Below are positions 7,738-41,152 of a DNA stretch of 64,000 nt, in pieces. The notes under the pieces are model-generated. The model saw nothing but the letters and a program-made list of their open reading frames with translations. It was not told the origin of the DNA and searched no databases. The translations under genes were made by a program, and so were the position numbers. Source of the DNA: Dehalococcoidia bacterium (lineage in GTDB: Bacteria; Chloroflexota; Dehalococcoidia; DSTF01; WHTK01); assembly GCA_965219205.1 (NCBI GenBank), contig CBDCMQ010000003.1, positions 448,819 to 512,818 on the forward strand, read 5' to 3'. Position 1 is the stretch's first letter. Every line of letters begins with the position of its first letter.

Positions 7738-8997
7738 GTGGCCTTTCTCAGGCTGCTTAAACGCCCGCACCTGGCGCTGCTCTGGCTGAGCCAGGTTTTG
7801 TCGTCCACCGGCGACACTTTCTATACGGTTGCCCTGATTTGGACCGCGGTGAATGTCGCCGGCAGCAGCGCCGGTGTCGTCGTCGCCGCCGGCTTCGCAA
7901 CCCGGGTGCTGTTCGGACCGATCGGCGGGGTGCTCGCCGACCGTTGGGACCATCGACGCACCTTAATTGGTCTCGACGTTACGCGCGCGATCACGGTTGC
8001 TTCGCTGCCTTTGCTCCATGCGACCGGCTCGCTGGAGCTCTGGCACCTGATCGTTGTCTCAGTGCTGCTGGCCGCGCAATCGACGATCTTCGATCCGGCC
8101 CTGCAAGCGAGCTTGCCCGGTTTGATCAAGTCCAAAGACGACATTGTGGCGATGAACGGGCTGATGGACGGCACGCGGCGTCTTGCCCTGGCGCTGGCGC
8201 CGAGCCTGGCCGGCGCTTTGGTCGCCGTTTTGCCTCTGCCGCAGTTCTTCACGCTGGACGCGTTCAGCTTTTGTGCCTCGGCCGTCGCTTTGATCGCCAT
8301 CGGACGCCACTTCGCCAAGACGCCGGCCACCGCGGCGGCCCTGACCCGGCTAACGATCGGCAACGTCTTTGGCGACGTCGTGACCGGTGTTAGGTTGGTC
8401 CGAACCAACGCGATCTTGAGCTGGTTCCTGGTCAACCAGGCGGTCAGCAACGCGGCCTGGGCGGCGACTTTTAACGTCGGCGCGGCGCTGCTAGCGTCAC
8501 GAACCCTGGGCGGCGAAGTTGGCACTTACGGCCTGATTCTTGGGGCCTACGGTGCGGGCAATATTCTTAGCAACTTCGTTGTCGGCAATCTCGGCATTAG
8601 CCGCCCGACGGTGATGCTGGCGGCCTCGCGGTTGGTCCAGGCAGCCGGCATCGCGATAATCGCCATCGCACCTTCGCTGCCGGTGGCGATGGCCGGTTCG
8701 TTCCTGACCGCGATCGGCGGGCCGATGGGCGATCTGATGCTGCTGGCCGTGATGCACCGCGATATGCCCCAGGGCACGATCGGCAAGGTTTATGCCTTGA
8801 GGATGACGATCGCCAGCATCGGCGTCTTCGTGGGGCTAATGCTGGCGGGTCCGCTGTACGCCAACGTCGCGATCAGGACCGGGATTGGAATTTGCGCCGT
8901 GCTTATGGCCATGACGGGTGTTGCGGGCTTCCTTCGCTTCGGGCTGGGTACACCGCGCACTGGTTCCACGCACCCGGTGAGCCAAACCGAGGCTTAG
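7738..8997 (+). CDS. MFS transporter
   Basis: A 419-aa hydrophobic ORF with about 12 predicted helices and an MFS-like N-terminus (LWLSQVLSSTGDTFYTVALIW, ADRWDHRR). It uses a GTG start. Confidence 0.8.
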   Translation: MAFLRLLKRPHLALLWLSQVLSSTGDTFYTVALIWTAVNVAGSSAGVVVAAGFATRVLFGPIGGVLADRWDHRRTLIGLDVTRAITVASLPLLHATGSLELWHLIVVSVLLAAQSTIFDPALQASLPGLIKSKDDIVAMNGLMDGTRRLALALAPSLAGALVAVLPLPQFFTLDAFSFCASAVALIAIGRHFAKTPATAAALTRLTIGNVFGDVVTGVRLVRTNAILSWFLVNQAVSNAAWAATFNVGAALLASRTLGGEVGTYGLILGAYGAGNILSNFVVGNLGISRPTVMLAASRLVQAAGIAIIAIAPSLPVAMAGSFLTAIGGPMGDLMLLAVMHRDMPQGTIGKVYALRMTIASIGVFVGLMLAGPLYANVAIRTGIGICAVLMAMTGVAGFLRFGLGTPRTGSTHPVSQTEA

Positions 8998-25791: not shown

Positions 25792-26607
25792 CTAACGCAG
25801 CGGCTCGGAATCTAGGCGTGCCACAACGTCGGCTAACTCGCCCGAGGCCGCCGGGTAGCGTTCCAGGACCAAAGGATCGTGGCCGGGAATGATGTGGTCA
25901 GGTGATTCTGCCAGCTCATGAAGCCTCCGAAAGCCATCCTGAACTTGAGCGGCGTCGTAGGTGATGGCGAAGGGACGGCCTGTTTCGATGTTCTCGTAGT
26001 AATGAGTTGTGTCGGAAGCGAGAACCAGATAGCCGCGGGCTGTGTTCACTCGCAGGACCTGGATGCCAGGAGTATGGCCGCCAATCAGATGGACGCTTAT
26101 GCCGGGTGCAGGTTGCCAGTCACCTTCGTAAAGCCGGACACGGTCTGCATATAAGCCTTCCACGATATTTACCACATCGCCAACCTCGAACGAGCCGCTG
26201 GCGTTGGTTGCGAACAGCTCGCTGCTGGTTACCCAGCGTAGCTCTTGCTCCTGGAGGTGAAACCTGGCGTTTGGCAGGTCAGCTAGGGTGCCGGCGTGGT
26301 CGTAGTGTAGGTGGGTCAGGACGACGTCGTCGATTCGATCTGGATCGACGTCCAGGAGCCGCAGACTGGCGACGGGCCGGCGCAAGAAGGTTCTCCCGTG
26401 TCTTGTTCCGACCGGCTCACTAAAACCAGTATCGACCACGATCGTGCGGGAGGCGTTTCGAACAACCCAAACGAAGTAGTCCATCGGCATCGGTGCGTCA
26501 GGATCGGAAACGGCGGCCTTGTCGAGAAAATGATCGGCGCGCTTCGCCGCGCGGCTCGCGTATTTCAGGGCGAAGACTTCGTAGCTCTCGGTCATGGTGA
26601 TACCCAT
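25792..26607 (-). CDS. MBL-fold metallo-hydrolase (lactonase-like)
   Basis: The THLHYDHAG motif is present, and the length is 271 aa. Confidence 0.8.
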   Translation of the reverse strand: MGITMTESYEVFALKYASRAAKRADHFLDKAAVSDPDAPMPMDYFVWVVRNASRTIVVDTGFSEPVGTRHGRTFLRRPVASLRLLDVDPDRIDDVVLTHLHYDHAGTLADLPNARFHLQEQELRWVTSSELFATNASGSFEVGDVVNIVEGLYADRVRLYEGDWQPAPGISVHLIGGHTPGIQVLRVNTARGYLVLASDTTHYYENIETGRPFAITYDAAQVQDGFRRLHELAESPDHIIPGHDPLVLERYPAASGELADVVARLDSEPLR

Positions 26608-26714
26608 TTTTTGAAATACCCTGAATGGCCGTGGGCCTTCAGGGGAGCATCGGCGGCGTTATGTTGCTTGTTGATCTGATTTGAGAAACCGGCAATGATG
26701 GTCGGTCGTCTTGT

Positions 26715-30986: not shown

Positions 30987-32696
30987 CTAGTGACTCACCA
31001 TGTGGAGCAAAGCCTGGCGGTGCTCCACTTCAACCGAGTGCAGCGCGCGCTGCAGGGCATCTGGAACATCCTCCGCATCCTCAACCCGCGCCGCAAAGCC
31101 ACCGGCGGATTGGCAGATCAACTCGAAATCGAGGCTGGGCCCGAGGTCGCTAAACGGGAACTGATCGTTTTTTGCCACCCAGCCGTCTGGGTAGAGGGCG
31201 CGGGTAGTCGTAGATACAGCCGCCCACTTCGCGTTATCCCAGACGATCGTCAGGATTGGCAAGTTGGAGTTTCTCGCGATCCAGTGACCTGCTTCCGGCA
31301 CGCCAAACATGTAACTGCCATCGCCGAGACAGGCGACGACGGTTTTCTCGGGCGAGGCGAGCTTGGCGCCAAGCGCCGCACCGAGACCCCACCCGAGGGC
31401 ACCGGGAGACGGCGAACCAAAGTAGGAGCCTGGCAGAGTCTGCCGGAAGTGGGCGGCGTCAAGGCCGAGCTCGTTCACGACGATCATGTTTTCGTGGCGA
31501 GCCTCCTCGAGGCAATGCGACACCCAGGCCTTGTCCAGAGGCGTCTTACCCCGTCCGTCCTGACCGCGGTTATGGAGGTCGTCAACCGCCGATTGACGTT
31601 CTTTCTGCCACCGCGCTCCGCGCGCTTCGATGGCCGCAGCGCCTGTTGGCATGGAATCGAGCTCCGCGATCAGTGACTCAATGCCAAGCCGTGGCGAACC
31701 CTGCAGGGTAAGGTCGGCGGGGAAGCTTCTTATCGGGATGCTGCTAAACAGTGGATCGTTACCCATAACGATAACGGGCGTATCTGCGGCGATGTCCACC
31801 AGGGACGGAATCCATGGGCTGTCGCTTTCGATCACCAGGACCAGATCCGCCTCTTGCAGGTGCCGGCTAACGCCCTGCGGCTGGTAAAGGCGGTGAGACT
31901 TGGGGAAGTTGAGAAAATGTCCTGGAGCATCGAAGACGTATAGATTCAGCTTCTCGGCGAGCTGGACCAGAGGTTCCACCGCGGACGGATCGCGCCCAAG
32001 AGCATTGGTGATGACGAGTGGATTCTGCGCCTGCGCCAACATTGAGGCCGCCATCCGAATCGCTTCGGGCGAAGGTGCGGACACGGCCGGCATCATGCGC
32101 GGGCGGTCTGAGTATTTAATTGACTGCCGGTCCTCGGCGAGCACCTCGCGAGGCAAGGTCAGATAGACCGGGCCCTTGGGTTCCGTCTGGCAGATCGCCA
32201 TGCCGCGGTCCACTATGGCCTCGATGTCGGACTCGTTGCGCAGCTCATAGTCCCATTTGACCCATTCCCGGACCATGCTGCCCTGGTCTCGAGATTCTTG
32301 GGCCCATTGAATCGTGTTCGACCGCGCTCCCTTGACACCAGGACCGTCGGTGAGGGGGGTGCGTCCGGCGGTGAAAAAGACGGGGATGTTGGAGCGGCTC
32401 GCGGTGATTATCGTTCCGAGTGCGTTGGCGGTTCCTGGAACCGTATGGACCATCACAACCTGGGGTTGGCCGCTGACCATGGCATAGCCCAGCGCCATTG
32501 CCGTACCGGTTATCTCATGGGGCACCGTTATCGGCTTCGGTACCGGCTGCTCACTGGCTACGCGCTTGACGTAGGCCTCGGCGATGGGCCCAAAATCTGT
32601 GCCACCGTTGCCAAAGAAGTACTCCACTCCACGGGCACACAAAAGCTCCAGATAAGCATCTACGACCGATTCGACGGATGCTTCCCTAAAGGGCAT
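30987..32696 (-). CDS. Thiamine pyrophosphate-dependent enzyme (acetolactate synthase large subunit / benzoylformate decarboxylase-like)
   Basis: The 569-aa ORF has the N-terminal pattern YFFGNGGTDFGPI and the TPP-binding pattern GDGSYMFG... Confidence 0.85.
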   Translation of the reverse strand: MPFREASVESVVDAYLELLCARGVEYFFGNGGTDFGPIAEAYVKRVASEQPVPKPITVPHEITGTAMALGYAMVSGQPQVVMVHTVPGTANALGTIITASRSNIPVFFTAGRTPLTDGPGVKGARSNTIQWAQESRDQGSMVREWVKWDYELRNESDIEAIVDRGMAICQTEPKGPVYLTLPREVLAEDRQSIKYSDRPRMMPAVSAPSPEAIRMAASMLAQAQNPLVITNALGRDPSAVEPLVQLAEKLNLYVFDAPGHFLNFPKSHRLYQPQGVSRHLQEADLVLVIESDSPWIPSLVDIAADTPVIVMGNDPLFSSIPIRSFPADLTLQGSPRLGIESLIAELDSMPTGAAAIEARGARWQKERQSAVDDLHNRGQDGRGKTPLDKAWVSHCLEEARHENMIVVNELGLDAAHFRQTLPGSYFGSPSPGALGWGLGAALGAKLASPEKTVVACLGDGSYMFGVPEAGHWIARNSNLPILTIVWDNAKWAAVSTTTRALYPDGWVAKNDQFPFSDLGPSLDFELICQSAGGFAARVEDAEDVPDALQRALHSVEVEHRQALLHMVSH

Positions 32697-32864
32697 TTGC
32701 GACTCCAGACGAACTGACTGCCCCAGAGTGAAGAGGCTCTAGGCCGAGCAAGATTACCTTAGAAGCGGGTGGCCGGTCGATTTCGAGACTGACGCGGCGG
32801 CCGGCTTCGTTCTCTCGAGCGAGCGGTGGAAGTCCCCGCGGGACCACGTTGCATTCAGGGCCTG

Positions 32865-33695
32865 CTAGCCAGGACCTTCAGAGCGAGGAAGGTTAAGAGA
32901 CAGCAAACGTTGCGCCTCGGCCATACAGGGCAGATCGACGCCGAGTTCGTCCGACAACGACAACGCAGCCTCGGTTACTTTGTGAAACATCAAAGCGCTG
33001 CCGGCGCGCGCTGTCTGATCGGGGTCCATGGTCTTGTACATTTCTTGTTCGATAACTTGCCTAGGTCCGTAGCTGTTGGTCACCACATCGATCAGAGCTT
33101 CCGGGGAGAAACCAGCAGCCTGCGCCAGGTTTAATCCGTTGGCAATCGCGGCCATCGTCCCAAGAAGAATCGTTTGAGCCGATAACTTTGTCATCGCACC
33201 GGTGCCGAGCGGACCGGTGTGGATTGTCCGCTTTCCGAGAACATCGAAAAGCGGTTGGCAGATCTCAAGATGGCTTGTTTCGCCACCCACCATGAAGAGC
33301 CATTGACCTTTTTCGGCGCCCTCGCTGCCACCGCTCATCTCCGCATCGACCACACCGACGCCGAGTGGCTCCGCATAGGCGGCAATCCTGCCGATTGTGG
33401 CGGGGGTGATCGTGCTGTGAATGGCGACAACAGTCCCTGGCTGAGCGGCGCTAAGTGCGCCTTGATCGCCCAGAAGAGCTGTCTCGACCTGCCGGTCGTC
33501 TAAGACGGCGACCTCAATTACTTGCGAATGGGCGCCGACATCCCGGTAGGAGGAGCCGACCTTCGCGCCTTGCTGTTCCAAGATTGCCATCGCTTCTGGG
33601 CGAACGTCGAAAACTGTCACATCAAACCCGGCGCGCAGCAAGTTCCGAACCATTGGAGCTCCTGTTTTGCCGAGGTCTATAAATCCCGTCCTCAT
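32865..33695 (-). CDS. 3-hydroxyisobutyrate dehydrogenase-family protein with an atypical dinucleotide-binding motif
   Basis: The N-terminus is MRTGFIDLGKTGAPMVRNLL, where GFIGLGxMG is expected. The rest of the protein is family-typical. Confidence 0.7.
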   Translation of the reverse strand: MRTGFIDLGKTGAPMVRNLLRAGFDVTVFDVRPEAMAILEQQGAKVGSSYRDVGAHSQVIEVAVLDDRQVETALLGDQGALSAAQPGTVVAIHSTITPATIGRIAAYAEPLGVGVVDAEMSGGSEGAEKGQWLFMVGGETSHLEICQPLFDVLGKRTIHTGPLGTGAMTKLSAQTILLGTMAAIANGLNLAQAAGFSPEALIDVVTNSYGPRQVIEQEMYKTMDPDQTARAGSALMFHKVTEAALSLSDELGVDLPCMAEAQRLLSLNLPRSEGPG

Positions 33696-33807
33696 CCGGT
33701 CGAACTCCTAACTTGCACTTTTGGCTCTGCTGGACCCTTGACCGAACATGCAGCAACGTGCGGTTATTTGCAAGAATACGCGTCCTTCAGGAGGGAGGTT
33801 GGCGGCG

Positions 33808-35070
33808 ATGTCTTCAGCGGCAGATCTGAACGTCCTTGGCCGCGTCGGGCCCGGCACACCCCTTGGCAGCCTGCTGAGGCGCTATTGGATCCCTCTGGTG
33901 TTCGACTGGGAAATTCCCGAACCGGACTGCGATCCGGTGTCGGTTCGGGTCCTGGGAGAAGATCTGGTGGTATTTCGAGACACCGATGGCCGTGTTGGCG
34001 TTCTGGAGGCCTGGTGTCCGCACCGGCTGGCCCACCTGTTTTGGGGGCGCAACGAGAACAATGGACTTAGGTGCGTCCATCATGGCTGGAAGTTCGACGT
34101 CACCGGCCAGTGCGTTGAGATGCCATCGGAGCCGGAAACCTCGAACTTCAGGGAGAAGATCCAGGCACAATCCTACCCGGCCGAGGAACTGGGAAACATC
34201 GTCTGGATTTACATGGGTCCTCCGGAGAGCGCTCCGCCGCCGCCGCAGTTTGAGTATGTAACGGTGCCAGAGGATCATCGCGCAGCCACAAAGGTCATCG
34301 AGGATGCTAGCTGGCTGAACTGCATCGAGGGTGGCTTCGATGAAGCCAAGGTTTCATTCCTGCACCACAACGACCTATCGGACAACGGAACATTGCGCCG
34401 GCGCAACACGGCTCCCCAGATTGAGGCTGAGACCACCGCCTGCGGCTTCACGTATTTGGCGGCCAGACCGATCAGTCCCGAGGAGGGGACATATGCGCGA
34501 TTTGTCCACTACGTGATGCCCTTTACCCAGATTCGCCCGTCGTTCATCAACGCCCAAGGATTGCCGCCCGCGAAACCGCAAAATAGCGGCCACTTCTGGG
34601 TGCCAATAGATGATGGGCAGACGATGGATTGGGAGTTTACCTACACCTGGGGAGAAGAGCCTTTAGCGGCCAGCGAGCGCGAGTTCAGAGGCCTCGCGAA
34701 CGCCTTTAACGCCGACGTCGACAAGCAATCATTCAGAGCAAAGCTAAATCGCTCCAACCGCTACCAAATCGATCGTTCGATGCAGAGGACGAAAAGCTTC
34801 ACCGGCATTACTGGCTCGGTGCCACAGGACCGTATGATTCATGAGGCTACCGCTCCGATTCGAGAACGAGGGCGCGAGCATCTTGGTTCGCTGGACGGGG
34901 CCGTGGTTGCCCTCCGAGACTTGCTCCTCAAAGGTGTCAGTACTGTCAAGGCCGGTGGCGCGCCGCCTGGTACTGGCACGGAGTATCACGGGATACGAGC
35001 CTGGGAGGCAATGGTTCACGTCGATCAGTCTTTGGCGGCTTTGAAAAAGCAGGTGCACAAACAATGGTGA
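33808..35070 (+). CDS. Rieske [2Fe-2S] non-heme iron oxygenase (subfamily A paralog)
   Basis: The N-terminal ~150 aa are about 90% identical to the 29620-30912 product, while the C-terminal domain is diverged. The start is placed at MSSAADLN (ATG 33808, after GGAGGGAGG). Confidence 0.85.
   Translation: MSSAADLNVLGRVGPGTPLGSLLRRYWIPLVFDWEIPEPDCDPVSVRVLGEDLVVFRDTDGRVGVLEAWCPHRLAHLFWGRNENNGLRCVHHGWKFDVTGQCVEMPSEPETSNFREKIQAQSYPAEELGNIVWIYMGPPESAPPPPQFEYVTVPEDHRAATKVIEDASWLNCIEGGFDEAKVSFLHHNDLSDNGTLRRRNTAPQIEAETTACGFTYLAARPISPEEGTYARFVHYVMPFTQIRPSFINAQGLPPAKPQNSGHFWVPIDDGQTMDWEFTYTWGEEPLAASEREFRGLANAFNADVDKQSFRAKLNRSNRYQIDRSMQRTKSFTGITGSVPQDRMIHEATAPIRERGREHLGSLDGAVVALRDLLLKGVSTVKAGGAPPGTGTEYHGIRAWEAMVHVDQSLAALKKQVHKQW
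33844..34258. repeat. Inverted repeat arm (Rieske domain of the 33808-35070 gene)
   Basis: The 89-bp core at 34027-34115 is the exact reverse complement of 30605-30693. Confidence 0.9.
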
Positions 35071-35117
35071 TCTCAAAACCATAGCTGGCAGTTCAAAGTC
35101 ACGGGGAAGGACATCTT

Positions 35118-36278
35118 ATGAATGTTGAGTCCGACGGGCGGCTTCTTTCCCTGTGGCAGGAACATCGCGAGCTAGAGCTGAGCCGCCAGGGAGGATCTCA
35201 GGTCGATCTGCTTTTGTCGACGATGACTGCTAACGCACAACTCAATAATGTACCTGTAATCACGGGCGGTCAGGGTGAGTCTGAGCTCAAGAAATTCTAT
35301 TCCGAGTACTTTTTGCCGGGATTGCCCGCAGACCTCGAAATCACGCCGGTGTTCCAGGCCGCCGGGAGCGACGACCGAGTAGTCGATGAGTTCGTGCTGA
35401 ACTTCACCCACGATGTCACCATGGATTGGCTATTGCCCGGGGTTGAGCCAACCGGGATGCAAGTGAAGGTTCCTATAGTTACGGTCGCTCAGTTTGAAGC
35501 GGACAAGATCTCTAGCCAGCGGTCATATTGGGACCAGGCTACGGTGCTGGTCCAAATCGGGCTACTCAACCCCTCTGACCTGCCGGTGAGTGGTGTAGAA
35601 CAGGCTGAGAAGATCTTGCATCCCGACACGGTTCCCTCAAACGAATTGATTTGGCGGGCCCTGGGAAAACGCTGGAACATTCCTGACTTTGAAATGCCGG
35701 CGCTGGGCCAACGCCCCGCAGTGCCGGACGCAGAAGCACTGACGGCGCTTTGGACCGAGCATCTGACCCACGAGTTTATTACTCTGGATGCCGAGGCAAC
35801 GCTCGCAACCATGGTTCCTCATGCTCACGTGAATCATGTTCCGACGCTCACCGGCGGTGCTGGTCACGAGCAATTGCTTTATTTCTACGCTAATCACTTC
35901 ATAGGCCAGCGGGGCCCAAATCTGGTTGGCATTCCCCAGGCGACGGTTCGGACGATGGCCCACGATACCTTGATCGATGAGAACGTCGGCCGTGGTGGAG
36001 CACATACAGTGGCGAATGACTACGCCCTTCCCGGAGTGGCTCCAACCGGCAGGGCGGTCTCGCGGGCCGGCATAATGCTGGTCCACTTTGAGGGAGACAA
36101 ACTTGCTCATGAGCACATCTATTGGGACCAGGCAACGACGATATCTCAGCTTGGGCTCTGGGATCCAGGTGACCTTCCCGTTTCCGGCCCAGACCAAGCT
36201 GACAAAATGACGTCTTTTGATTCAGTTCCATCCAACCAGCTCGTGGAGCGAGCGCGGGCAAGGCGCGGCTCAAAATGA
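35118..36278 (+). CDS. Protein with two tandem NTF2/SnoaL-like domains (function unknown)
   Basis: An internal duplication is visible: ...SYWDQATVLVQIGLLNPSDLPVSGVEQAEKILHPDTVPSNELI versus ...IYWDQATTISQLGLWDPGDLPVSGPDQADKMTSFDSVPSNQLV. Confidence 0.5.
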   Translation: MNVESDGRLLSLWQEHRELELSRQGGSQVDLLLSTMTANAQLNNVPVITGGQGESELKKFYSEYFLPGLPADLEITPVFQAAGSDDRVVDEFVLNFTHDVTMDWLLPGVEPTGMQVKVPIVTVAQFEADKISSQRSYWDQATVLVQIGLLNPSDLPVSGVEQAEKILHPDTVPSNELIWRALGKRWNIPDFEMPALGQRPAVPDAEALTALWTEHLTHEFITLDAEATLATMVPHAHVNHVPTLTGGAGHEQLLYFYANHFIGQRGPNLVGIPQATVRTMAHDTLIDENVGRGGAHTVANDYALPGVAPTGRAVSRAGIMLVHFEGDKLAHEHIYWDQATTISQLGLWDPGDLPVSGPDQADKMTSFDSVPSNQLVERARARRGSK

Positions 36279-36409
36279 TACCGACGGCAGGCCTGAAACC
36301 AGGTGTTTACTGCCAAACGCACCTTCAAATGTCGACGTATAGGTGACAATGTACTGTCCGTGGCTCTATAAATGAGCTGGTGATCGAATCTCGTCGCAGG
36401 AGGCCACTC

Positions 36410-37816
36410 ATGAACCTCGATGTCAAAGGCCCAAATCCGACACAGAGCAACGGAAAGAACCTGCAACACGTCGGCGAAGTGGCGATGGAGGAAGCCTGGG
36501 GTGCCTCGCAGATCGGCCCGTTCGATTTTGTGCCACCGCTAGGCTTTCGCGAGTACTGGTACCCGGCCTTGTGGACGAAAGACGTCGGGGCGAAAACGCC
36601 CAAGCACGTTGACCTTCTGGGCGAGAACATCGTCTTCTTCCGGGGAAAAGATGACACGGTCTCGGCTCTGACCGACTGGTGTCCACACCGCAACGCCAGA
36701 TTGTCCTTGGGAATCTCTGAATTCCCCGGCACGATCACTTGCCCGTATCACGGCTATACCTTTGATGGCACCGGCCAATGCGTCGCCGGCCTCATCGACC
36801 ATCCGGAATCACCGGTTGTGTCGAAGATGCGTGCCAAGTCGTACCCAACGGCGGAGTACCAGGGCGTGGTCTATGTCTGGATGGGAGAAACAGACCCGGT
36901 CGCTTTGCAGGATGACTTGCCGGCCGAGCTAATAGATGAACGAAACCACCGCTTTATCCGTACCAAGGAATGGGAGACCAACTGGACTGAACCCATCGCA
37001 CAGGGGATCGATTTCCACGAGGGCTACCTTCATCGCATGGCGTTCAAGTTCTGGCCTATGTTTCCCGGCGAGCCATTTTGGGCACGCACCTTGATGAATG
37101 TCACGAGGGTCTTCAATAAGCACTTCAGATTCTTCAGGCCGAAGGTTGCCTACTACGGTGGCACAGAGATCGTGCACGAAGAGGAAACGCTCTTCGCGAT
37201 GAAAGCCAAAGATCAGGTGATGGGCCAAGGATTTCACCCGGGAGTCGACTCAAAATGGCCGAGACACACTTGGTGGCGGTTCTTGAAGAATAAGCCGCGT
37301 TCTAAGCCAGGCACCTTGCTCACGGGCGGGTCTTTCGATCACAGTTGCGAACTTCCAAGCAAGATTCGCTCGGTGGTCCGTCCCGAGAGCGTGCACCTTC
37401 GCTGGATGGTTCCGGTCACCACCGGTAAAACCCGCGTCTGGACCTACACGATCTGCCGCCGGCCACAAACCATCCCCGGGCGACTGTGGCAGAACGCCTG
37501 GTACTACTTCTGGAGGAAGGGCGAGATAGTTGTCGCAACCAACGAACAGGAAGACTTGGCCACTTTCAAGGAAGACAGACTGCGCTTCGACTTGCCGCAA
37601 AAGCTCGGACCTCTCGATGCCGGCCTGATCTATTTCCGCCGCCACCTTTCGAGGCGGTCACGTGACTACAGGCGGCTGGGAGGTTCACGAGGCGCACTCA
37701 AGGCTGAGCCGACGCGGACCGCTGAGGAGTGGCGAGCACAGCCAGAAGATTTGGACCGGCAGAACCCAATTGTGGAGAGCTCGGAAAAAGAAGTCTCGGC
37801 GCTCGCAAAGAGCTAG
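36410..37816 (+). CDS. Rieske [2Fe-2S] oxygenase (subfamily B)
   Basis: CPHRNARL...CPYHGYTF is present. The start ATG at 36410 lies 6 nt after CAGGAGG. Confidence 0.85.
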   Translation: MNLDVKGPNPTQSNGKNLQHVGEVAMEEAWGASQIGPFDFVPPLGFREYWYPALWTKDVGAKTPKHVDLLGENIVFFRGKDDTVSALTDWCPHRNARLSLGISEFPGTITCPYHGYTFDGTGQCVAGLIDHPESPVVSKMRAKSYPTAEYQGVVYVWMGETDPVALQDDLPAELIDERNHRFIRTKEWETNWTEPIAQGIDFHEGYLHRMAFKFWPMFPGEPFWARTLMNVTRVFNKHFRFFRPKVAYYGGTEIVHEEETLFAMKAKDQVMGQGFHPGVDSKWPRHTWWRFLKNKPRSKPGTLLTGGSFDHSCELPSKIRSVVRPESVHLRWMVPVTTGKTRVWTYTICRRPQTIPGRLWQNAWYYFWRKGEIVVATNEQEDLATFKEDRLRFDLPQKLGPLDAGLIYFRRHLSRRSRDYRRLGGSRGALKAEPTRTAEEWRAQPEDLDRQNPIVESSEKEVSALAKS

Positions 37817-37916
37817 CGACTGTGGCGATTCATCCAGGAGCCTAGTATCCGGCGCTGAATGAGAGCCAGCGCCAAGCGTGCTGACGGCACTTGGGAAGGG
37901 CGAAATAGTATCAGGC

Positions 37917-38085
37917 AAATTTTCGCTGCCGACGCTCTGGGGAAGACGCTGCGCTTATTCTCCCATGGCCATTCCCCGTATTTCGAAGCCCGTTGCAACA
38001 AGTAAAATAACGCTGCCGACGCTCCGGGGAAGTAGGTGCCAGAGGCACACTGATTCCCCGTATTTCAAAAAATAGGAGAAGAGAA
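37917..38085 (+). promoter_or_regulatory. Repeated leader element upstream of the LigB-like gene, with architecture A-B-A-B
   Basis: Box A (CGCTGCCGACGCTCYGGGG) lies at 37924-37942 and 38011-38029. Box B (ATTCCCCGTATTTC) lies at 37971-37984 and 38053-38066. The hairpin CGGGGAA(38025-38031)/TTCCCCG(38054-38060) has an inner GTGCC-aga-GGCAC stem. The RBS and ATG follow directly. Confidence 0.5.
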
Positions 38086-39156
38086 ATGGGCGATATTCGC
38101 GGCTTCGGCCTAAGTCACTATCCGCCGCTTAGTGGCCCAGACGGCGCGATGGCAGGCATCCTGCGCGGCACTCTGAAGCGCCCGGACATCCCAGAAGCAG
38201 CCAAGCAGGTAGACACTTGGCCGGCGCCGATGCGGGCCGAATGGGGCGAGGACGAGGGGCGCAGCTCCGCGGGTTCACACCGCGCCGAGTTCGTTAATCA
38301 CTGCAGGGCAGTCAGGGCTGAACTGGACGCCTTCGATCCGGACGTCGTCGTCATGTTCGGTGACGATCAGTATGAGAATTTTCACGAGGACCTCATCCCG
38401 CCATTCTGCGTCTATGCCTGGGACGACTTTGAAGCCACGCCTCACAAGCGCGGTGAGCAGCTCCTGGCGGATAACATCTGGGGCGAACCAGTAGACTTCA
38501 CGATTCCAATTAAGTGCCACCGGCAAGCGGGAAAACAGATTGCCAGGGGATTACTCGAGCACTCGATTGACATTAGTTACTATTACAAGTCCCTGCACTT
38601 CCAGGGTCTAAGCCACGCCTTCCTCAACGGTATTACCTACCTTGACTACGATCGTGTCGGTTGGCCCTACGCCACCGTCCCGGTCGCTGTGAACTGTTAC
38701 GGCAGCAACGTCATCGGCAGCCATGGCAGTTCGCCGCCGATCGGCAAGATTGAGCGCGAGGTCAGCGAGCTCGACCCGCCGGGGCCTTCGCCACAACGCT
38801 GCATGGCCGTGGGCGCGGCGCTTGCAGACGTTTGCCGCCAAAGTCCATGGAAAGTCGCGCTTATAGCCTCCTCGGGCTGGTCCCACGCCTTTCTGACCAA
38901 AAAACACAACCTCCTCTACCCGGACGTAGATCAGGATCGGCGCCTCTATGAGGCACTGGCGGCTGGGGATTTTGATTTCTGGCGCGGCGTCTCCACGTCT
39001 GAGGTTGAGGATTCTGGTGATCAAGAGGCGCTGAATTGGTGGGTTCTCATGGGAGCGATGGAGGAGTTGGGCCTCAAGAAGCCTGAATATCACGGCTACC
39101 TGGAGTCCTATGTCTTTAATTCGAACAAGTGCTTCGCTGTTTGGAAGCCCAGCTAG
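38086..39156 (+). CDS. Class III (LigB-family) extradiol dioxygenase-like protein
   Basis: DVVVMFGDDQYENFHEDLIPPF, IASSGWSHAF and GDQEALNWWVLMGAM resemble the LigB/gallate dioxygenase fold. This is assigned from memory and has not been searched. Confidence 0.55.
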   Translation: MGDIRGFGLSHYPPLSGPDGAMAGILRGTLKRPDIPEAAKQVDTWPAPMRAEWGEDEGRSSAGSHRAEFVNHCRAVRAELDAFDPDVVVMFGDDQYENFHEDLIPPFCVYAWDDFEATPHKRGEQLLADNIWGEPVDFTIPIKCHRQAGKQIARGLLEHSIDISYYYKSLHFQGLSHAFLNGITYLDYDRVGWPYATVPVAVNCYGSNVIGSHGSSPPIGKIEREVSELDPPGPSPQRCMAVGAALADVCRQSPWKVALIASSGWSHAFLTKKHNLLYPDVDQDRRLYEALAAGDFDFWRGVSTSEVEDSGDQEALNWWVLMGAMEELGLKKPEYHGYLESYVFNSNKCFAVWKPS

Positions 39157-39958
39157 CCAGGTTCACAATTTGCAGATTAACCGGCTAAGTTATGGTCCAA
39201 AGCCGGACCAGTATGGGGACCTCTGGCTGCCCGAGGGGCCTGGACCGTTCCCGGTAGTGGTGAACCTACACGGCGGCTACTGGCGCGAACGGTTCGCCAT
39301 GGTTCGGGAGGACGCGCGGCTGACAAGCTTGGTGGAGCAAGGCTTCGCCGGCTGGAATATCGAGTTCCGCAGATCCAACGTTTCCGCAGGCCGGGCCGCC
39401 TGGCCCGACATCCTTTGGGATGTGGCGGGCGGCATCGACTTCCTTGCCGAGTTATCCGGGAATCATGATCTCGACCTCAATAGGGTCGTATTTGCCGGTT
39501 ATTCAGCGGGCGGCCAGCTCGCCCTGTGGGCGGCGGCGCGCTCTCAGTTTGAACCGGGCGCCGTTGGCGCGGAGCCCAGGGTTTTGCCGATTGGTGCCGT
39601 TGGTTTGGCCGGTGTCACCGACATGGTGGGGCTAGACGAGGGCCATTGGGGTGAGGATGCCGTAGCTGAGTTTTTTTACGGCGTTCCGGACTACGCCGTC
39701 CACCGGGAAGAGTGCTCACCACTGGCATTGCTTCCCTTGAGCATCCCCCAGCTCTTTGTTCACGGTGACCAGGACGAGCGGGTACCGCTGGAACACACGC
39801 TTGCCTATGAGGCGAAGGCGCGAGAAATGGGAGATCAGGTGACGATGCTCGTCTTGCCGGGTGTCAGCCATTTCACTTTTCCGGATACGGAATCGTCAGT
39901 GTGGCGCTTTGTTTCCGATTGGATTCACCAGTTGGTTGCAACCGAAAAGCCCATCTAG
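39110..39958 (+). CDS. Alpha/beta hydrolase (esterase/lipase-like)
   Basis: HGGYW provides the oxyanion region and GYSAGGQLA the nucleophile elbow. HGDQDERVP is also present. The start is uncertain: ATG 39110 overlaps the upstream gene by 47 nt, and TTG 39170 is an alternative. Confidence 0.8.
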   Translation: MSLIRTSASLFGSPASQVHNLQINRLSYGPKPDQYGDLWLPEGPGPFPVVVNLHGGYWRERFAMVREDARLTSLVEQGFAGWNIEFRRSNVSAGRAAWPDILWDVAGGIDFLAELSGNHDLDLNRVVFAGYSAGGQLALWAAARSQFEPGAVGAEPRVLPIGAVGLAGVTDMVGLDEGHWGEDAVAEFFYGVPDYAVHREECSPLALLPLSIPQLFVHGDQDERVPLEHTLAYEAKAREMGDQVTMLVLPGVSHFTFPDTESSVWRFVSDWIHQLVATEKPI

Positions 39959-39981: not shown

Positions 39982-40141
39982 GCCATTGCCAGTATTCCTA
40001 TGCCCGCTGCAACAGCGAAAATAACGCTGCTGACGCTCCTGGGCGCGGGCGGAGCCCGTAAACTCCGAAGGAAAGAAACGCCTCATACGCACCCGGCAAG
40101 GCGCACCGCCATTGCCGGTATTCTAAAAATAAGAGGCCTAA
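39982..40141 (+). promoter_or_regulatory. Second copy of the leader element, upstream of the ACMSD-like gene, with architecture B-A-B
   Basis: 39982-40043 aligns with 37968-38029 at 51 of 62 positions. The terminal hairpin is CCGGCAAGGCG(40093-40103)/CGCCATTGCCGG(40107-40118). It is followed by TATTCTAAAAATAAGAGG and the ATG at 40142. Confidence 0.5.
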
Positions 40142-41152
40142 ATGCTGATCGACATGCATGCCCACGTGGTTCCGGAGAACTTTCCCGTCCGAGCTGAGAA
40201 TGCGCAGTGGCCCACCATGGACCATTTCGAGGCTGGGCGAGCCAAGGTAATGATCGGCGGCGAGGTTTACCGGACCATCCACTCGGGCAACTGGGATTAC
40301 GAACGCCGGCTTCGTGATATGGAAAGGTCGGGGGTGGACGCGGAAGTAATCTCGCCGATGCCGGAGCTTCTCGCGTATTGGTATGACGAGGACGATGGCC
40401 TGGAATTTTGCCGACACCTGAACACTTTCATTCGCGGTCTGTGTGATTCAGCGCCCGAACGATTCTGGGGCTTGGGCGCAGTGCCTCTGCAGAGTCCAGA
40501 ACTGGCGACAAAAGAGCTGTCAGCCATCAAGGCGCTCGGATTGGCTGGCGTAGAGTTGGGAACCCACGTCAATGGTCGTTCCTTGGGGATGCCGGAGTTT
40601 CAAGAGTTTTTCTCGGAGGCAGAGCGGCTGGGACTATCAGTCTTTGTGCATGCCTTGCGGCCGACCATGCGAGACCGTTTTCCCACTGGCTCGATCACTA
40701 ATCCGATTGGGTTTCCAATCGAAAACGGGGTGGCGATCGCCAGCCTGATCAGCGGCGGCATCGCCGAGGCCTGCCCGGATTTGCGTTTAGCCTTTAGTCA
40801 TGGCGGTGGGGCCTTCCCCTTCATGCTGCCGCGCTACTCACATGCCTACGATGGTGAGTGGAACGAGGAGAAGCAGAAAAGGTCACCAGCGGCGGCAAAC
40901 AGACCGGGACTTGCAAGGCCACCAGCCGAATACGCGCGCCGGTTCTATTACGATACCCTCATCTTCGATCATCGAGCGATCCAGTATTTGATTGACATGA
41001 TTGGCCCGACTCAACTCATGATTGGCACCGACTACCCCTACATGGAGAGGGAAGAGCCGGTTGGCCGGACTCTGCGTTCTATGGGTTTGGCTGAGGAGCT
41101 CGTAGAGGATATTTGCTCGAGGAATTGCCTGCGGTTCCTCGGCCTGGAATAG
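40142..41152 (+). CDS. Amidohydrolase_2 family protein (ACMSD / LigW-type metal-dependent decarboxylase-like)
   Basis: MLIDMHAHVVPENFP is the signature N-terminus. The length is 336 aa. Confidence 0.8.
   Translation: MLIDMHAHVVPENFPVRAENAQWPTMDHFEAGRAKVMIGGEVYRTIHSGNWDYERRLRDMERSGVDAEVISPMPELLAYWYDEDDGLEFCRHLNTFIRGLCDSAPERFWGLGAVPLQSPELATKELSAIKALGLAGVELGTHVNGRSLGMPEFQEFFSEAERLGLSVFVHALRPTMRDRFPTGSITNPIGFPIENGVAIASLISGGIAEACPDLRLAFSHGGGAFPFMLPRYSHAYDGEWNEEKQKRSPAAANRPGLARPPAEYARRFYYDTLIFDHRAIQYLIDMIGPTQLMIGTDYPYMEREEPVGRTLRSMGLAEELVEDICSRNCLRFLGLE

What the first reader, a model, noticed from the sequence alone, without database searches (positions are those of the whole stretch)
37917..38085. 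Tandemly repeated, hairpin-forming leader element in front of the LigB-like dioxygenase gene
The 269-bp spacer before the 38086 gene holds two direct copies of a ~68-nt unit.
- Each unit has box A (CGCTGCCGACGCTCYGGGG), a variable segment, and box B (ATTCCCCGTATTTC).
- In both units the 3' end of box A (YGGGGAA) is complementary to the core of box B (TTCCCCG).
- The proximal unit therefore folds into a long hairpin: a 7-bp outer stem plus an inner GTGCC-aga-GGCAC stem.
- That hairpin ends 25 nt before the ATG and is followed by TATTTCAAAAAATAGGAG, a U-rich stretch plus the RBS.

This geometry suggests a transcription attenuator, riboswitch-like leader or protein-bound RNA or DNA operator. No such element is known to me. 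A REP/BIME-type extragenic repeat is the alternative.
Basis: seen in the sequence. Interest (0 to 1): 0.65.

Follow-up and report, generated by a model that had tools for sequence, protein, structure and literature searches.

The report
Dispersed hairpin repeat, not a riboswitch
The "leader" in front of the LigB-like dioxygenase gene is three tandem copies of a small hairpin-forming DNA repeat present about 100 times in this uncultured Dehalococcoidia genome and in one sister genome, so it is selfish or structural repeat DNA of the REP/BOX kind and not a sensor specific to this gene.

Summary
Two direct units (box A, a covarying stem, then ATTCCCCGTATTTC) lie at 37921-38077. The proximal hairpin is strong and ends 25 nt before the ATG.

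It is not a gene-specific leader. A covariance model built from the hairpin finds about 112 copies in this genome and about 117 in one sister MAG (OZ252017.1). It finds none in 39 other relatives, and there is no Rfam match.

- **Structure:** the stem is kept by compensatory changes (95-97% paired; 0 of 500 shuffles reach this).
- **Context:** copies lie in 72 different spacers, and the start-adjacent ones precede 27 unrelated gene families.
- **Turnover:** in a 100-kb collinear block, 15 orthologous gaps hold copies only in the sister genome, 4 only here, and 2 hold copies in opposite orientation. Junctions are clean, lie at gene boundaries and lack target-site duplications.
- **Orientation:** it follows GC skew (sister genome 63:5 versus 20:51), which suggests spread through single-stranded DNA at replication forks. 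The enzyme is unknown. The genome's RAYT transposase has its own, different GTAG hairpin.

A weaker sense-to-gene bias, and a tail that often stops 20-30 nt before start codons, leave room for a secondary effect on mRNA.

Verdict: a new, uncatalogued member of a familiar kind of element; modest interest.

The parts
37849..37916 (+). Degenerate third copy. It is the 5' half of a 'long-form' family member: a box A variant CCGGCGCTGAA, an extra GAGCCAGCG hairpin arm, and the stem arm TTGGGAAG.
   Evidence: Local alignment to long-form copies scores 31-34, against a shuffle maximum of 22-25. It is also 80% identical to a sequence next to a family copy in the sister genome.
37921..37995 (+). Distal unit. 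Box A 37924-37938; outer stem 37938-37944 pairing with 37972-37978; inner module 37946-37970 (type M3, ACGCTGCGCTTATTCTCCCATGGCC); tail TATTTCGAA 37979-37987.
   Evidence: Covariance-model hit of 33.2 bits, E = 1.5e-6. Boxes located. The fold is weak. The inner module type was identified.
37996..38007 (+). Linker between units (part of GAAGCCCGTTGCAACAAGTAAAATAA). It resembles an 'upstream module' (gagcccgYtaNc..caacgcaaNNa) that recurs before box A in other copies.
   Evidence: Seen by eye in the flanks listed. Not tested statistically.
38008..38077 (+). Proximal unit. Box A 38011-38025; outer stem 38025-38031 pairing with 38054-38060; inner hairpin GTAG-GTGCC-aga-GGCAC 38032-38052 (type M2); tail TATTTCAAAAAAT 38061-38073.
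   Evidence: Covariance-model hit of 53.2 bits, E = 1.6e-11. Fold of -23.1 kcal/mol, z = -2.7 to -5.2.
38074..38088 (+). Shine-Dalgarno AGGAG (38074-38078) and the ATG (38086-38088) of the LigB-like gene. These belong to the gene, not to the repeat.
   Evidence: Read from the sequence. In a filled-versus-empty site comparison, the SD is present in the empty site and the repeat sits just 5' of it (site 5).
38086..39156 (+). Downstream gene: LigB-family extradiol ring-cleavage dioxygenase-like protein, 356 aa.
   Evidence: Pfam PF02900, E = 6.6e-10. Called by codon usage.
36380..37816 (+). Upstream gene on the same strand: a Rieske [2Fe-2S] oxygenase alpha-subunit-like protein. The repeats therefore lie between genes of one same-strand catabolic cluster.
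   Evidence: Pfam PF00355, E = 1.2e-18. Gene calls.
40022..40135 (+). Further copies of the same family in the next long spacer, ending 7 nt before the amidohydrolase gene that starts at 40142.
   Evidence: Covariance-model hits at 40076-40135 (57.8 bits) and 40022-40070 (13.5 bits, weak).
26602..26661 (-). Another short-form copy of the family on the minus strand, directly upstream of a minus-strand gene start.
   Evidence: Covariance-model hit of 77.2 bits. Listed as start-adjacent (C3:475420-475479).

Best explanation
The flagged segment is a head-to-tail array of three copies of one repeat family: two good copies and one decayed one. The family is lineage-specific, modular and dispersed through intergenic DNA.

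**Anatomy of a unit**
- An unpaired 5' box (aCGCTGCCGACGCTCC).
- A 7-bp outer stem whose sequence varies between copies but stays complementary.
- An interchangeable inner module, usually itself a small GC hairpin, which can occur in either orientation.
- An A/T-rich 3' tail (TATTTCAAAnAAT).

**Shown**
- The family has about 100-115 copies in each of two sister Dehalococcoidia genomes and none elsewhere.
- Copies are gained and lost between those two genomes.
- They sit at gene boundaries and lack target-site duplications.
- Arrays keep a single orientation.
- Orientation follows the replication strand: the box A-to-tail strand lies on the C-rich strand.

**Inferred**
- The units spread, or spread until recently, as non-autonomous elements through a single-stranded hairpin DNA intermediate at the replication fork. 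This resembles IS200/IS605 and REP/RAYT elements, or template switching. My odds are about 45%, and the enzyme is not identified.
- At this locus the array landed just upstream of the LigB-like gene's own Shine-Dalgarno, inside a same-strand catabolic gene cluster, and lengthened a short spacer to 269 nt.
- Any effect on expression is a by-product of a stable hairpin in the transcript, such as a decay barrier or a 5' stabiliser. It does not involve sensing a metabolite.
For: **Copy number and distribution**
- Box A has 26 near-matches in the genome, against 1 for the reversed control.
- The covariance model finds 112 copies at E <= 0.1, of which 97 have E < 0.01.
- It finds 117 in G012 and 0 in 39 other relatives, including 16 of the same genus.
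- G012 is OZ252017.1, a Dehalococcoidia MAG.
- Metagenome scans give at most one weak hit, and Rfam gives none.

**Selected hairpin**
- In this genome 97.1% of cells are paired and 6 of 11 pairs show compensatory changes; 0 of 500 shuffles reach this.
- 109 copies from G012 reproduce it independently: 95.3% paired, 7 of 11 pairs, 0 of 500.

**Not tied to one gene**
- The 97 copies lie in 72 spacers.
- The 31 start-adjacent copies precede 27 unrelated protein clusters.

**Turnover**
- In a collinear block, 15 gaps are filled only in G012, 4 only here, and 2 in both but in opposite orientation.
- Filled and empty junctions are clean, with no duplication. Examples are 80 nt against 0, and an insert that splits an ATGA stop/start overlap.

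**Replication-strand bias**
- G012: 63 '+' to 5 '-' where skew is negative, and 20 '+' to 51 '-' where it is positive (Fisher p = 1e-15; by locus 11:3 against 2:11).
- One 120-kb block has 44 '+' to 1 '-' elements although its genes are 45 '+' to 53 '-'.
- This genome: 57 concordant to 28 discordant, p = 0.002.
- Y1/HUH elements are documented to act on the lagging-strand template (PMC6006769).

**Arrays and this spacer**
- 14 of 15 multi-copy spacers have a single orientation.
- The spacer here is almost entirely repeat-derived.
Against: **No mobilising enzyme is linked to the family**
- The RAYT genes of both genomes are flanked by a different hairpin, GTAGGGACGG...CCGTCC, and not by family copies.
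- Both RAYT copies in this genome carry an in-frame TAG.
- RAYT-like genes also occur in relatives that lack the family.

**Strand signals do not all agree**
- If the active strand is the one on the lagging-strand template, it is the strand on which stem mismatches read A·C rather than G·T.
- Leading and lagging strands were inferred from GC-skew sign alone. No origin was mapped.
- Copies within arrays are not independent counts.

**Some features point to an RNA-level role**
- Sense-to-gene bias is 53:17 in co-directional spacers.
- There is a sharp 20-30 nt spacing between the tail and start codons.
- A purely selfish model does not by itself explain these.

**This locus**
- The three copies here are in the minority orientation relative to skew.
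- No transcript data could be obtained.
Confidence: 0.85

Rival explanations
1. The repeat has been co-opted as an RNA element. In sense copies such as this one, it provides a stable stem-loop followed by an A/U-rich stretch just 5' of the Shine-Dalgarno. This would work as a portable intercistronic module: a barrier to exonucleases, a processing site or a weak terminator. The result would be to stabilise the downstream cistron or to uncouple neighbouring genes. This can coexist with a selfish origin.
For: - Sense bias is 53:17 by copy and 34:14 by spacer in co-directional spacers.
- 28 of 63 tail ends that face a gene start lie within 30 nt, with a peak at 20-30 nt.
- 20 of the 31 start-adjacent copies have an SD.
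- Stem mismatches favour G·U over A·C: 15:4 to 22:5 here and 24:10 in G012.
- REP, BIME, ERIC, BOX and Correia elements are reported to affect mRNA stability, attenuation or processing (PMC3049150; PMC3733652).
Against: - The hairpin is equally stable on both strands: mean -17.5 kcal/mol each, p = 0.66-0.90.
- In G012, orientation ignores gene direction. It is 44:1 in a block with 45:53 genes, and 5 of 6 spacers between minus-strand genes hold antisense copies.
- The tail lies just as close to stop codons of convergent genes (11 of 29 within 30 nt).
- Copies come and go between sister genomes.
- No T-run terminator signature was found.
- There are no transcript data.
Confidence: 0.25
2. One reading: a dedicated attenuator, riboswitch-like leader or operator that controls the LigB-like dioxygenase gene in response to an aromatic effector.
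For: - A strong hairpin lies 25 nt upstream of the ATG and is followed by a moderately U-rich stretch.
- The location is a catabolic gene cluster.
Against: - About 100 copies sit next to unrelated genes.
- The element is absent from 39 relatives.
- The sister genome lacks this locus altogether.
- The variable part of each unit is one of a few interchangeable modules, not a conserved ligand pocket.
- There is no alternative anti-terminator pairing, and the whole region is not unusually structured.
- No Rfam family matches, and no terminator T-run was found.
Confidence: 0.02
3. The family is a classical REP mobilised by the genome's RAYT (REP-associated tyrosine transposase).
For: - A true RAYT is present. 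It scores 89 bits against NF047646 (cut-off 80), far above its IS200 score.
- There are two copies in each of the two repeat-bearing genomes, intact in G012.
- G012 also has more copies in the collinear block (45 against 19).
- The family shows a replication-strand bias and no target duplications.
- Some inner modules begin with GTAG directly before their hairpin, including the proximal unit here.
Against: - In both genomes the RAYT genes are bracketed by inverted GTAGGGACGG...CCGTCC hairpins, which have not spread (7 genome hits against 9 for the control). No family copy lies near them.
- Most family members, the short form, have no GTAG.
- GTAG-plus-hairpin sites are not enriched in the genome.
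- Arrays are direct rather than inverted pairs.
- RAYT relatives occur across the genus without this family.
Confidence: 0.12
4. The strand bias reflects a chromosomal DNA function that depends on orientation relative to replication. Examples would be a Chi-like or KOPS-like polar signal in box A, or a binding site for gyrase or a nucleoid protein as reported for BIMEs. On this reading copies are kept by selection rather than by a polar insertion mechanism.
For: - There is a strong correlation with GC skew.
- Box A is the most conserved and unpaired part of the element.
Against: - The family is restricted to two genomes, whereas chromosome-organising signals are normally conserved across a lineage.
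- Copies cluster in a few regions and in tandem arrays rather than being spread evenly.
- No protein partner is known, and nothing here tests binding.
Confidence: 0.08

Closest known systems
REP / BIME elements of Proteobacteria, including the GTAG- and CGTC-tagged REP superfamilies (PMC3733652)
   Same: - Short GC-rich hairpin repeats, present about a hundred times per genome.
- Intergenic, and often clustered into mosaic arrays.
- Species-specific.
- Stems are kept by compensatory changes.
- Copies differ between close relatives.
   Different: - No GTAG or CGTC tetranucleotide sits directly against the stem. The CGTC inside box A lies on the wrong side and 4 nt away from the stem.
- Units are longer (about 60-90 nt), with a conserved unpaired 5' box and an A/T tail.
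- Arrays are head-to-tail rather than alternating or inverted.
- The genome's RAYT is flanked by a different hairpin.
REPINs and RAYTs (Pseudomonas; PMC3116915, PMC3337134)
   Same: - Non-autonomous small repeats thought to move as single-stranded hairpins.
- A RAYT gene is present in the genome, with its own flanking hairpins.
   Different: - REPINs are inverted REP doublets. In this family 14 of 15 multi-copy spacers are in direct orientation.
- No association between the RAYT and this family was found.
IS200/IS605-family single-strand transposition (PMC6006769)
   Same: - Orientation is tied to the direction of replication.
- There are no target-site duplications.
- The element depends on a hairpin rather than on terminal inverted repeats.
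   Different: - This family has no transposase gene inside the element and no identified enzyme acting in trans.
- The strand that would lie on the lagging-strand template is the one with the slightly poorer stem.
- No target sequence has been defined.
Pneumococcal BOX elements (boxA-boxB(n)-boxC; PMC3049150)
   Same: - Modular build, with conserved ends and a variable, interchangeable middle.
- Fold into stem-loops if transcribed.
- Found in operons as 5' or 3' extensions of transcripts.
- Effects on neighbouring genes depend on orientation.
   Different: - No sequence relationship.
- BOX elements have terminal inverted repeats and are enriched between convergent genes. This family shows no TIRs and only a mild context preference.
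- BOX leading-strand bias (about 61%) merely mirrors the coding bias, whereas this family's strand bias is much stronger and independent of gene direction.
Mycobacterial interspersed repetitive units, MIRU (PMC3184786)
   Same: - Units of 40-100 bp in direct tandem arrays.
- Lie between genes of polycistronic operons.
- Filled and empty sites differ between related species.
   Different: - MIRUs carry small ORFs that overlap the flanking genes' stop and start codons, and they show short direct repeats at filled sites. Neither feature was seen here.
- This family is dominated by a strong hairpin.

Membership tests
Riboswitch / transcription-attenuator leader | Conserved upstream of orthologous or functionally related genes across species | tested here: not met
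   - 0 of 39 other relatives carry it.
- The sister genome lacks this locus.
- The start-adjacent copies precede 27 unrelated protein clusters.
Riboswitch / transcription-attenuator leader | Match to a curated RNA family, or a terminator hairpin followed by a U-run with an alternative anti-terminator pairing | tested here: not met
   - No Rfam hit, even at E <= 10.
- The terminator scan finds nothing in the spacer.
- The region as a whole folds no better than shuffles.
REP (GTAG-tagged superfamily) | Conserved GTAG tetranucleotide directly at one end of a 20-40 bp palindrome | tested here: not met
   - Only some inner modules (M1 and part of M2, about 20 of 92 classified copies) have GTAG before their hairpin.
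- The predominant short form has none.
- GTAG-plus-hairpin sites are not enriched (121 against 77-215 for control tetranucleotides).
REP (GTAG-tagged superfamily) | Cognate RAYT gene flanked by members of the family (REPtron) | tested here: not met
   In both genomes the RAYTs are flanked by GTAGGGACGG...CCGTCC hairpins, not by this family.
REP (CGTC-tagged superfamily, PMC3733652) | CGTC at the head, then an 8-9 bp stem beginning with A·T pairs, a 4-5 nt loop and a short CCA-like tail | tested here: not met
   - The CGTC of box A, read on the antisense strand, lies 3' of the stem with a 4-nt spacer.
- The A·T pairs are at the loop end of the outer stem.
- Loops and modules are much longer.
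REPIN / BIME | Units paired in inverted or alternating orientation | tested here: not met
   - 14 of 15 multi-copy spacers have all copies in one orientation.
- The array here is head-to-tail.
MITE (DDE-transposase-dependent) | Terminal inverted repeats and target-site duplications | tested here: not met
   - The two ends (CGCTGCCGACGCTCC and TATTTCAAA) are not inverted repeats of each other.
- Clean filled-versus-empty junctions show no duplication.
- Only eight junctions were examined.
Generic small dispersed structured intergenic repeat (REP-like in the broad sense) | High copy number, intergenic location, a conserved secondary structure, lineage restriction, and presence/absence polymorphism between relatives | tested here: met
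IS200/IS605-like single-strand mobilisation | Orientation bias relative to the direction of replication | tested here: met
   - G012: 63:5 against 20:51 by sign of GC skew.
- G000: 57:28.
- Leading and lagging strands were inferred from skew only.
IS200/IS605-like single-strand mobilisation | A Y1/HUH enzyme that binds and cleaves the element's hairpin strand | not testable with these tools
   Needs biochemistry. The only Y1 genes found have a different cognate hairpin.

The most novel reading that the evidence does not exclude
The family could be a previously undescribed type of non-autonomous single-strand-DNA element. It would lack GTAG and CGTC tags, lack a linked RAYT, and have its orientation set by the replication fork. 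It would insert with its A/T-rich tail immediately 5' of Shine-Dalgarno sequences or 3' of stop codons. In sense orientation it would have been co-opted as a portable "hairpin plus A/U-rich spacer" module that breaks translational coupling and sets the stability of individual cistrons in the large catabolic gene clusters of these Dehalococcoidia.
Probability: 0.15. Interest if true: 0.6.

Novelty: new member of a known kind. Interest (0 to 1): 0.3.

Why it matters
- **Annotation:** it prevents a false riboswitch or attenuator call. About 100 intergenic segments in two Dehalococcoidia genomes can instead be annotated as one repeat family.
- **Genome plasticity:** the family marks rapid, local change at gene boundaries inside catabolic gene clusters of an uncultured lineage. 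Copies split overlapping stop/start codons and lengthen intercistronic spacers, which is likely to alter operon expression.
- **Mechanism:** orientation follows the replication strand far more closely than it follows gene direction, and no cognate transposase is evident. This bears on an open question raised for CGTC-type and untagged REP-like repeats (PMC3733652): how are such elements mobilised when no dedicated enzyme is evident?

Tried and rejected
- **Rfam:** scans at gathering threshold and at E <= 10 found no relevant hit.
- **Promoter and terminator scan:** nothing in the spacer.
- **First gene calls:** longest-ORF calls made orientation look almost random (42:31). I replaced them with codon-usage-scored calls.
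- **Any-ORF distance analysis:** swamped by shadow ORFs, so I redid it on called genes.
- **Public genome pattern scan:** GCCGACGCTCC-N24-54-TATTTCAA was too loose. Only OZ252017.1 had several hits.
- **Metagenome scans:** 0 hits and 3 hits, with only one weak model match.
- **RAYT co-occurrence:** uninformative, because PF01797 is present in all 18 genomes of the genus and the close RAYT lineage simply follows the sister-species relationship.
- **GTAG and CGTC tags:** not met.
- **Spread by gene duplication:** rejected.
- **Sense versus antisense folding energy:** no difference, so the G·U excess is not proof of an RNA-level role.
- **Orthologous-spacer comparison for this locus:** impossible, because G012 lacks window 30997-38787.
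- **Collinear chain:** it broke after about 58 kb, so 17 G012 copies and 11 G000 copies in that block were not assigned to gaps.

Full report
**Observation.**
- Box A (CGCTGCCGACGCTCYGGGGAAG) occurs at 37924-37945 and 38011-38032 and nowhere else in the window, even with three mismatches allowed. None is expected by chance.
- Box B (ATTCCCCGTATTTC) lies at 37971-37984 and 38053-38066.
- The spacer between the Rieske-type gene (ends 37816) and the LigB-like gene (ATG 38086) is 269 nt.
- The proximal unit folds into a 7-bp outer stem (38025-38031 with 38054-38060) around an inner GGTGCC-aga-GGCAC hairpin. dG is about -23 kcal/mol, and z is -2.7 to -5.2 against shuffles.
- That hairpin ends 25 nt before the ATG and is followed by TATTTCAAAAAAT and AGGAG.
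- The distal unit folds no better than shuffled sequence (z = +0.97), and neither does the 196-nt region as a whole (z = -0.34).

**It is one locus of a large family.**
- Box A has 26 near-matches in the 2.98-Mb genome, against 1 for a reversed control.
- Inspecting the hits shows a common layout: a 5' box aCGCTGCCGACGCTCC; a 7-nt arm; an inner segment drawn from a handful of types; the complementary arm; and a tail TATTTCAAAnAAT.
- I aligned 19 short-form copies. The 11-bp hairpin is 97.1% paired, and 6 of 11 pairs show changes on both sides. None of 500 column shuffles and no slid register comes close.
- The covariance model built from this alignment finds 112 copies in the genome at E <= 0.1, 97 of them at E < 0.01. 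They include both units of the finding, a pair before the next long spacer's gene (40022-40135), and one at 26602-26661 on the minus strand.
- Window 37849-37899 also aligns with the 5' half of long-form members (scores 31-34 against a shuffle maximum of 22-25). The 269-nt spacer is therefore essentially three repeat units.
- No Rfam family matches.

**Distribution.**
- Among 40 relatives, only one same-genus genome, G012, has the family. It has 117 copies.
- Its collinear genes are about 76-91% identical in nucleotide sequence to this genome.
- 109 G012 copies reproduce the covariation independently: 95.3% paired, 7 of 11 pairs compensatory, 0 of 500 shuffles.
- Exact-pattern scans of metagenome contigs gave nothing, apart from one weak match of 21.9 bits.

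**Context.** I used gene calls scored by codon usage.
- The 97 copies lie in 72 spacers: 48 co-directional, 12 convergent and 12 divergent.
- 15 spacers hold 2-5 copies, and in 14 of those all copies share one orientation.
- The 31 copies whose tail lies within 45 nt of a start codon precede genes from 27 unrelated homology clusters. The element therefore did not spread with a paralogous gene family and is not tied to aromatic ring-cleavage genes.

**Turnover.**
- G012 lacks window 30997-38787 entirely. One deletion endpoint lies inside its LigB-like gene, so no orthologous spacer exists for this locus.
- G012:1,270,001-1,390,000 is collinear with C3:213,443-314,632. In the part that could be chained, 15 orthologous gaps hold copies only in G012, 4 only in this genome, and 2 in both.
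- In one of the shared gaps, the copies face opposite ways in the two genomes.
- Filled and empty junctions are clean. One is an 80-nt insert against zero extra bases. Another is an insert that splits an ATGA stop/start overlap and replaces the first codons of the downstream gene. A third sits just 5' of a Shine-Dalgarno that is already present in the empty site.
- I saw no target-site duplications and no terminal inverted repeats.

**Orientation.** Two signals coexist.

*Gene direction:*
- In this genome, copies between co-directional genes are sense 53 times and antisense 17 times. By spacer the split is 34:14.

*Replication strand:*
- In G012, where local GC skew is negative, copies are 63 '+' to 5 '-'. 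Where it is positive, they are 20 '+' to 51 '-' (Fisher p = 1e-15; by 20-kb locus 11:3 against 2:11).
- In the 120-kb block, genes are 45 '+' to 53 '-' but elements are 44 '+' to 1 '-'. Five of six spacers between minus-strand genes hold antisense copies.
- This genome shows the same bias more weakly: 57:28, p = 0.002.
- The box A-to-tail strand therefore lies preferentially on the C-rich strand.
- Orientation coupled to replication is documented for IS200/IS605 elements, which excise from and insert into the lagging-strand template as single strands. It is discussed for RAYT/REP systems as well (PMC6006769).
- I assigned leading and lagging strands from the sign of the skew only.

*Polarity of the element itself:*
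- Measured from the stem, the tail side lies close to the neighbouring gene. 28 of 63 tails facing a start are within 30 nt, with a peak at 20-30 nt. 11 of 29 tails facing a stop are within 30 nt.
- The box A side has a median distance of about 185 nt.
- Because the tail abuts stops as well as starts, this looks like insertion or array-growth polarity rather than a dedicated leader geometry.

**RNA or DNA?**
- Stem mismatches favour G·T(U) over A·C: 15:4 with no register choice and 22:5 with Watson-Crick-only register choice, and 24:10 in G012 (though that alignment was fitted by the model).
- Total folding energy is nevertheless the same for the two strands: -17.5 kcal/mol each, p = 0.9 and 0.66.
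- I therefore cannot say whether the hairpin is selected as RNA or as single-stranded DNA.

**Candidate enzyme.**
- The genome has two Y1 genes. They are true RAYTs: NCBIfam NF047646 scores 89 bits (cut-off 80) when an in-frame TAG is read through, against 27 bits for IS200.
- Both copies here carry that TAG. The two G012 copies are 85-88% identical to them and intact.
- In both genomes each RAYT is bracketed by inverted GTAGGGACGG...CCGTCC hairpins. This is the classic arrangement.
- That hairpin occurs only 7 times in the genome (reversed control: 9). No family copy lies near a RAYT.
- RAYT-like genes are found in nearly every genome of the genus.
- A RAYT link is therefore possible but unsupported.

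**Comparison with known families.** The definitions of GTAG- and CGTC-tagged REPs (PMC3733652) are not met.
- Most copies have no GTAG.
- The CGTC inside box A lies on the wrong side of the stem and 4 nt away from it.

Other comparisons:
- REPIN/BIME architecture (inverted or alternating units) is not met, because these arrays are direct.
- MITE hallmarks (TIRs and TSDs) were not seen.
- The modular build recalls pneumococcal BOX elements (PMC3049150).
- The direct intercistronic arrays recall MIRUs (PMC3184786).
- There is no sequence relationship with either, and their defining details differ.

**Conclusion.**
- The finding is a real, structurally constrained element, but it is an ordinary kind of thing: a local array of a lineage-specific dispersed hairpin repeat.
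The riboswitch/attenuator reading is not.
- The most likely mode of spread is through a single-stranded hairpin intermediate at replication forks. This is an inference, at about 45%, and the enzyme is unknown.
- A secondary RNA-level effect on neighbouring cistrons remains possible (about 25%) and is testable with transcript-end mapping.

Noticed in passing
Genome contigs C9:97673-98137 (-) and C2:282901-283365 (+), outside the window; loci L009 and L010: Two 98-99% identical RAYT (REP-associated tyrosine transposase) genes. Each is interrupted by an in-frame TAG and bracketed by inverted GTAGGGACGG...CCGTCC hairpins. The sister genome has two intact copies with the same flanks. That hairpin has not multiplied in the genome.
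   Followed up: yes
Window 30997-38787, compared with G012:C1:2527679-2528071 (L011 about 8045-8047): The sister genome lacks this 7.8-kb segment, which holds the LigXa-like Rieske gene, the SnoaL-like gene, the second Rieske gene, the repeat spacer and the 5' two-thirds of the LigB-like gene. A truncated LigB-like remnant, 84% identical over residues 226-356, is left behind. This catabolic cluster therefore varies between the two genomes.
   Followed up: partly
Window 37946-37970 (inner module of the distal unit) and family-wide: Inner module type M3 (ACGGCTTCGCCTATTCGCCACGGCC) is the reverse complement of type M4 (GCGCACCGCGAATAGGCGAAGCCGTC). The loop segment therefore occurs in both orientations inside the same outer stem. 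One possible cause is inversion by recombination between the stem arms.
   Followed up: partly
Genome contigs C1:27885-28263 and C6:69961-70259; also C4:28042-28101 and C9:32583-32642: A five-copy tandem array with an 80-nt period appears identically on two contigs, and another copy with identical flanks also appears on two contigs. These are either recent segmental duplications or assembly redundancy. Copy counts may be inflated by a few.
   Followed up: no
Window 39110-39156: The LigB-like ORF (38086-39156) and the following alpha/beta-hydrolase ORF (39110-39958) overlap by 47 nt when the longest ORFs are taken. The true hydrolase start may lie further downstream.
   Followed up: no
Whole genome (G000): About 82% of 60-kb windows have negative GC skew as the contigs are laid out. 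For a nine-contig assembly this is an unusually one-sided picture. It left few positive-skew spacers (7) for the strand-bias test in this genome.
   Followed up: no
G012:C1:1283600-1284500 (L126 13659-14455), compared with C3:225298-225943: In the sister genome, repeat insertions sit exactly at gene junctions that in this genome are zero-length or overlapping (ATGA). One insertion replaces the first three codons of the downstream gene and leaves a GTG start with no obvious Shine-Dalgarno.
   Followed up: partly
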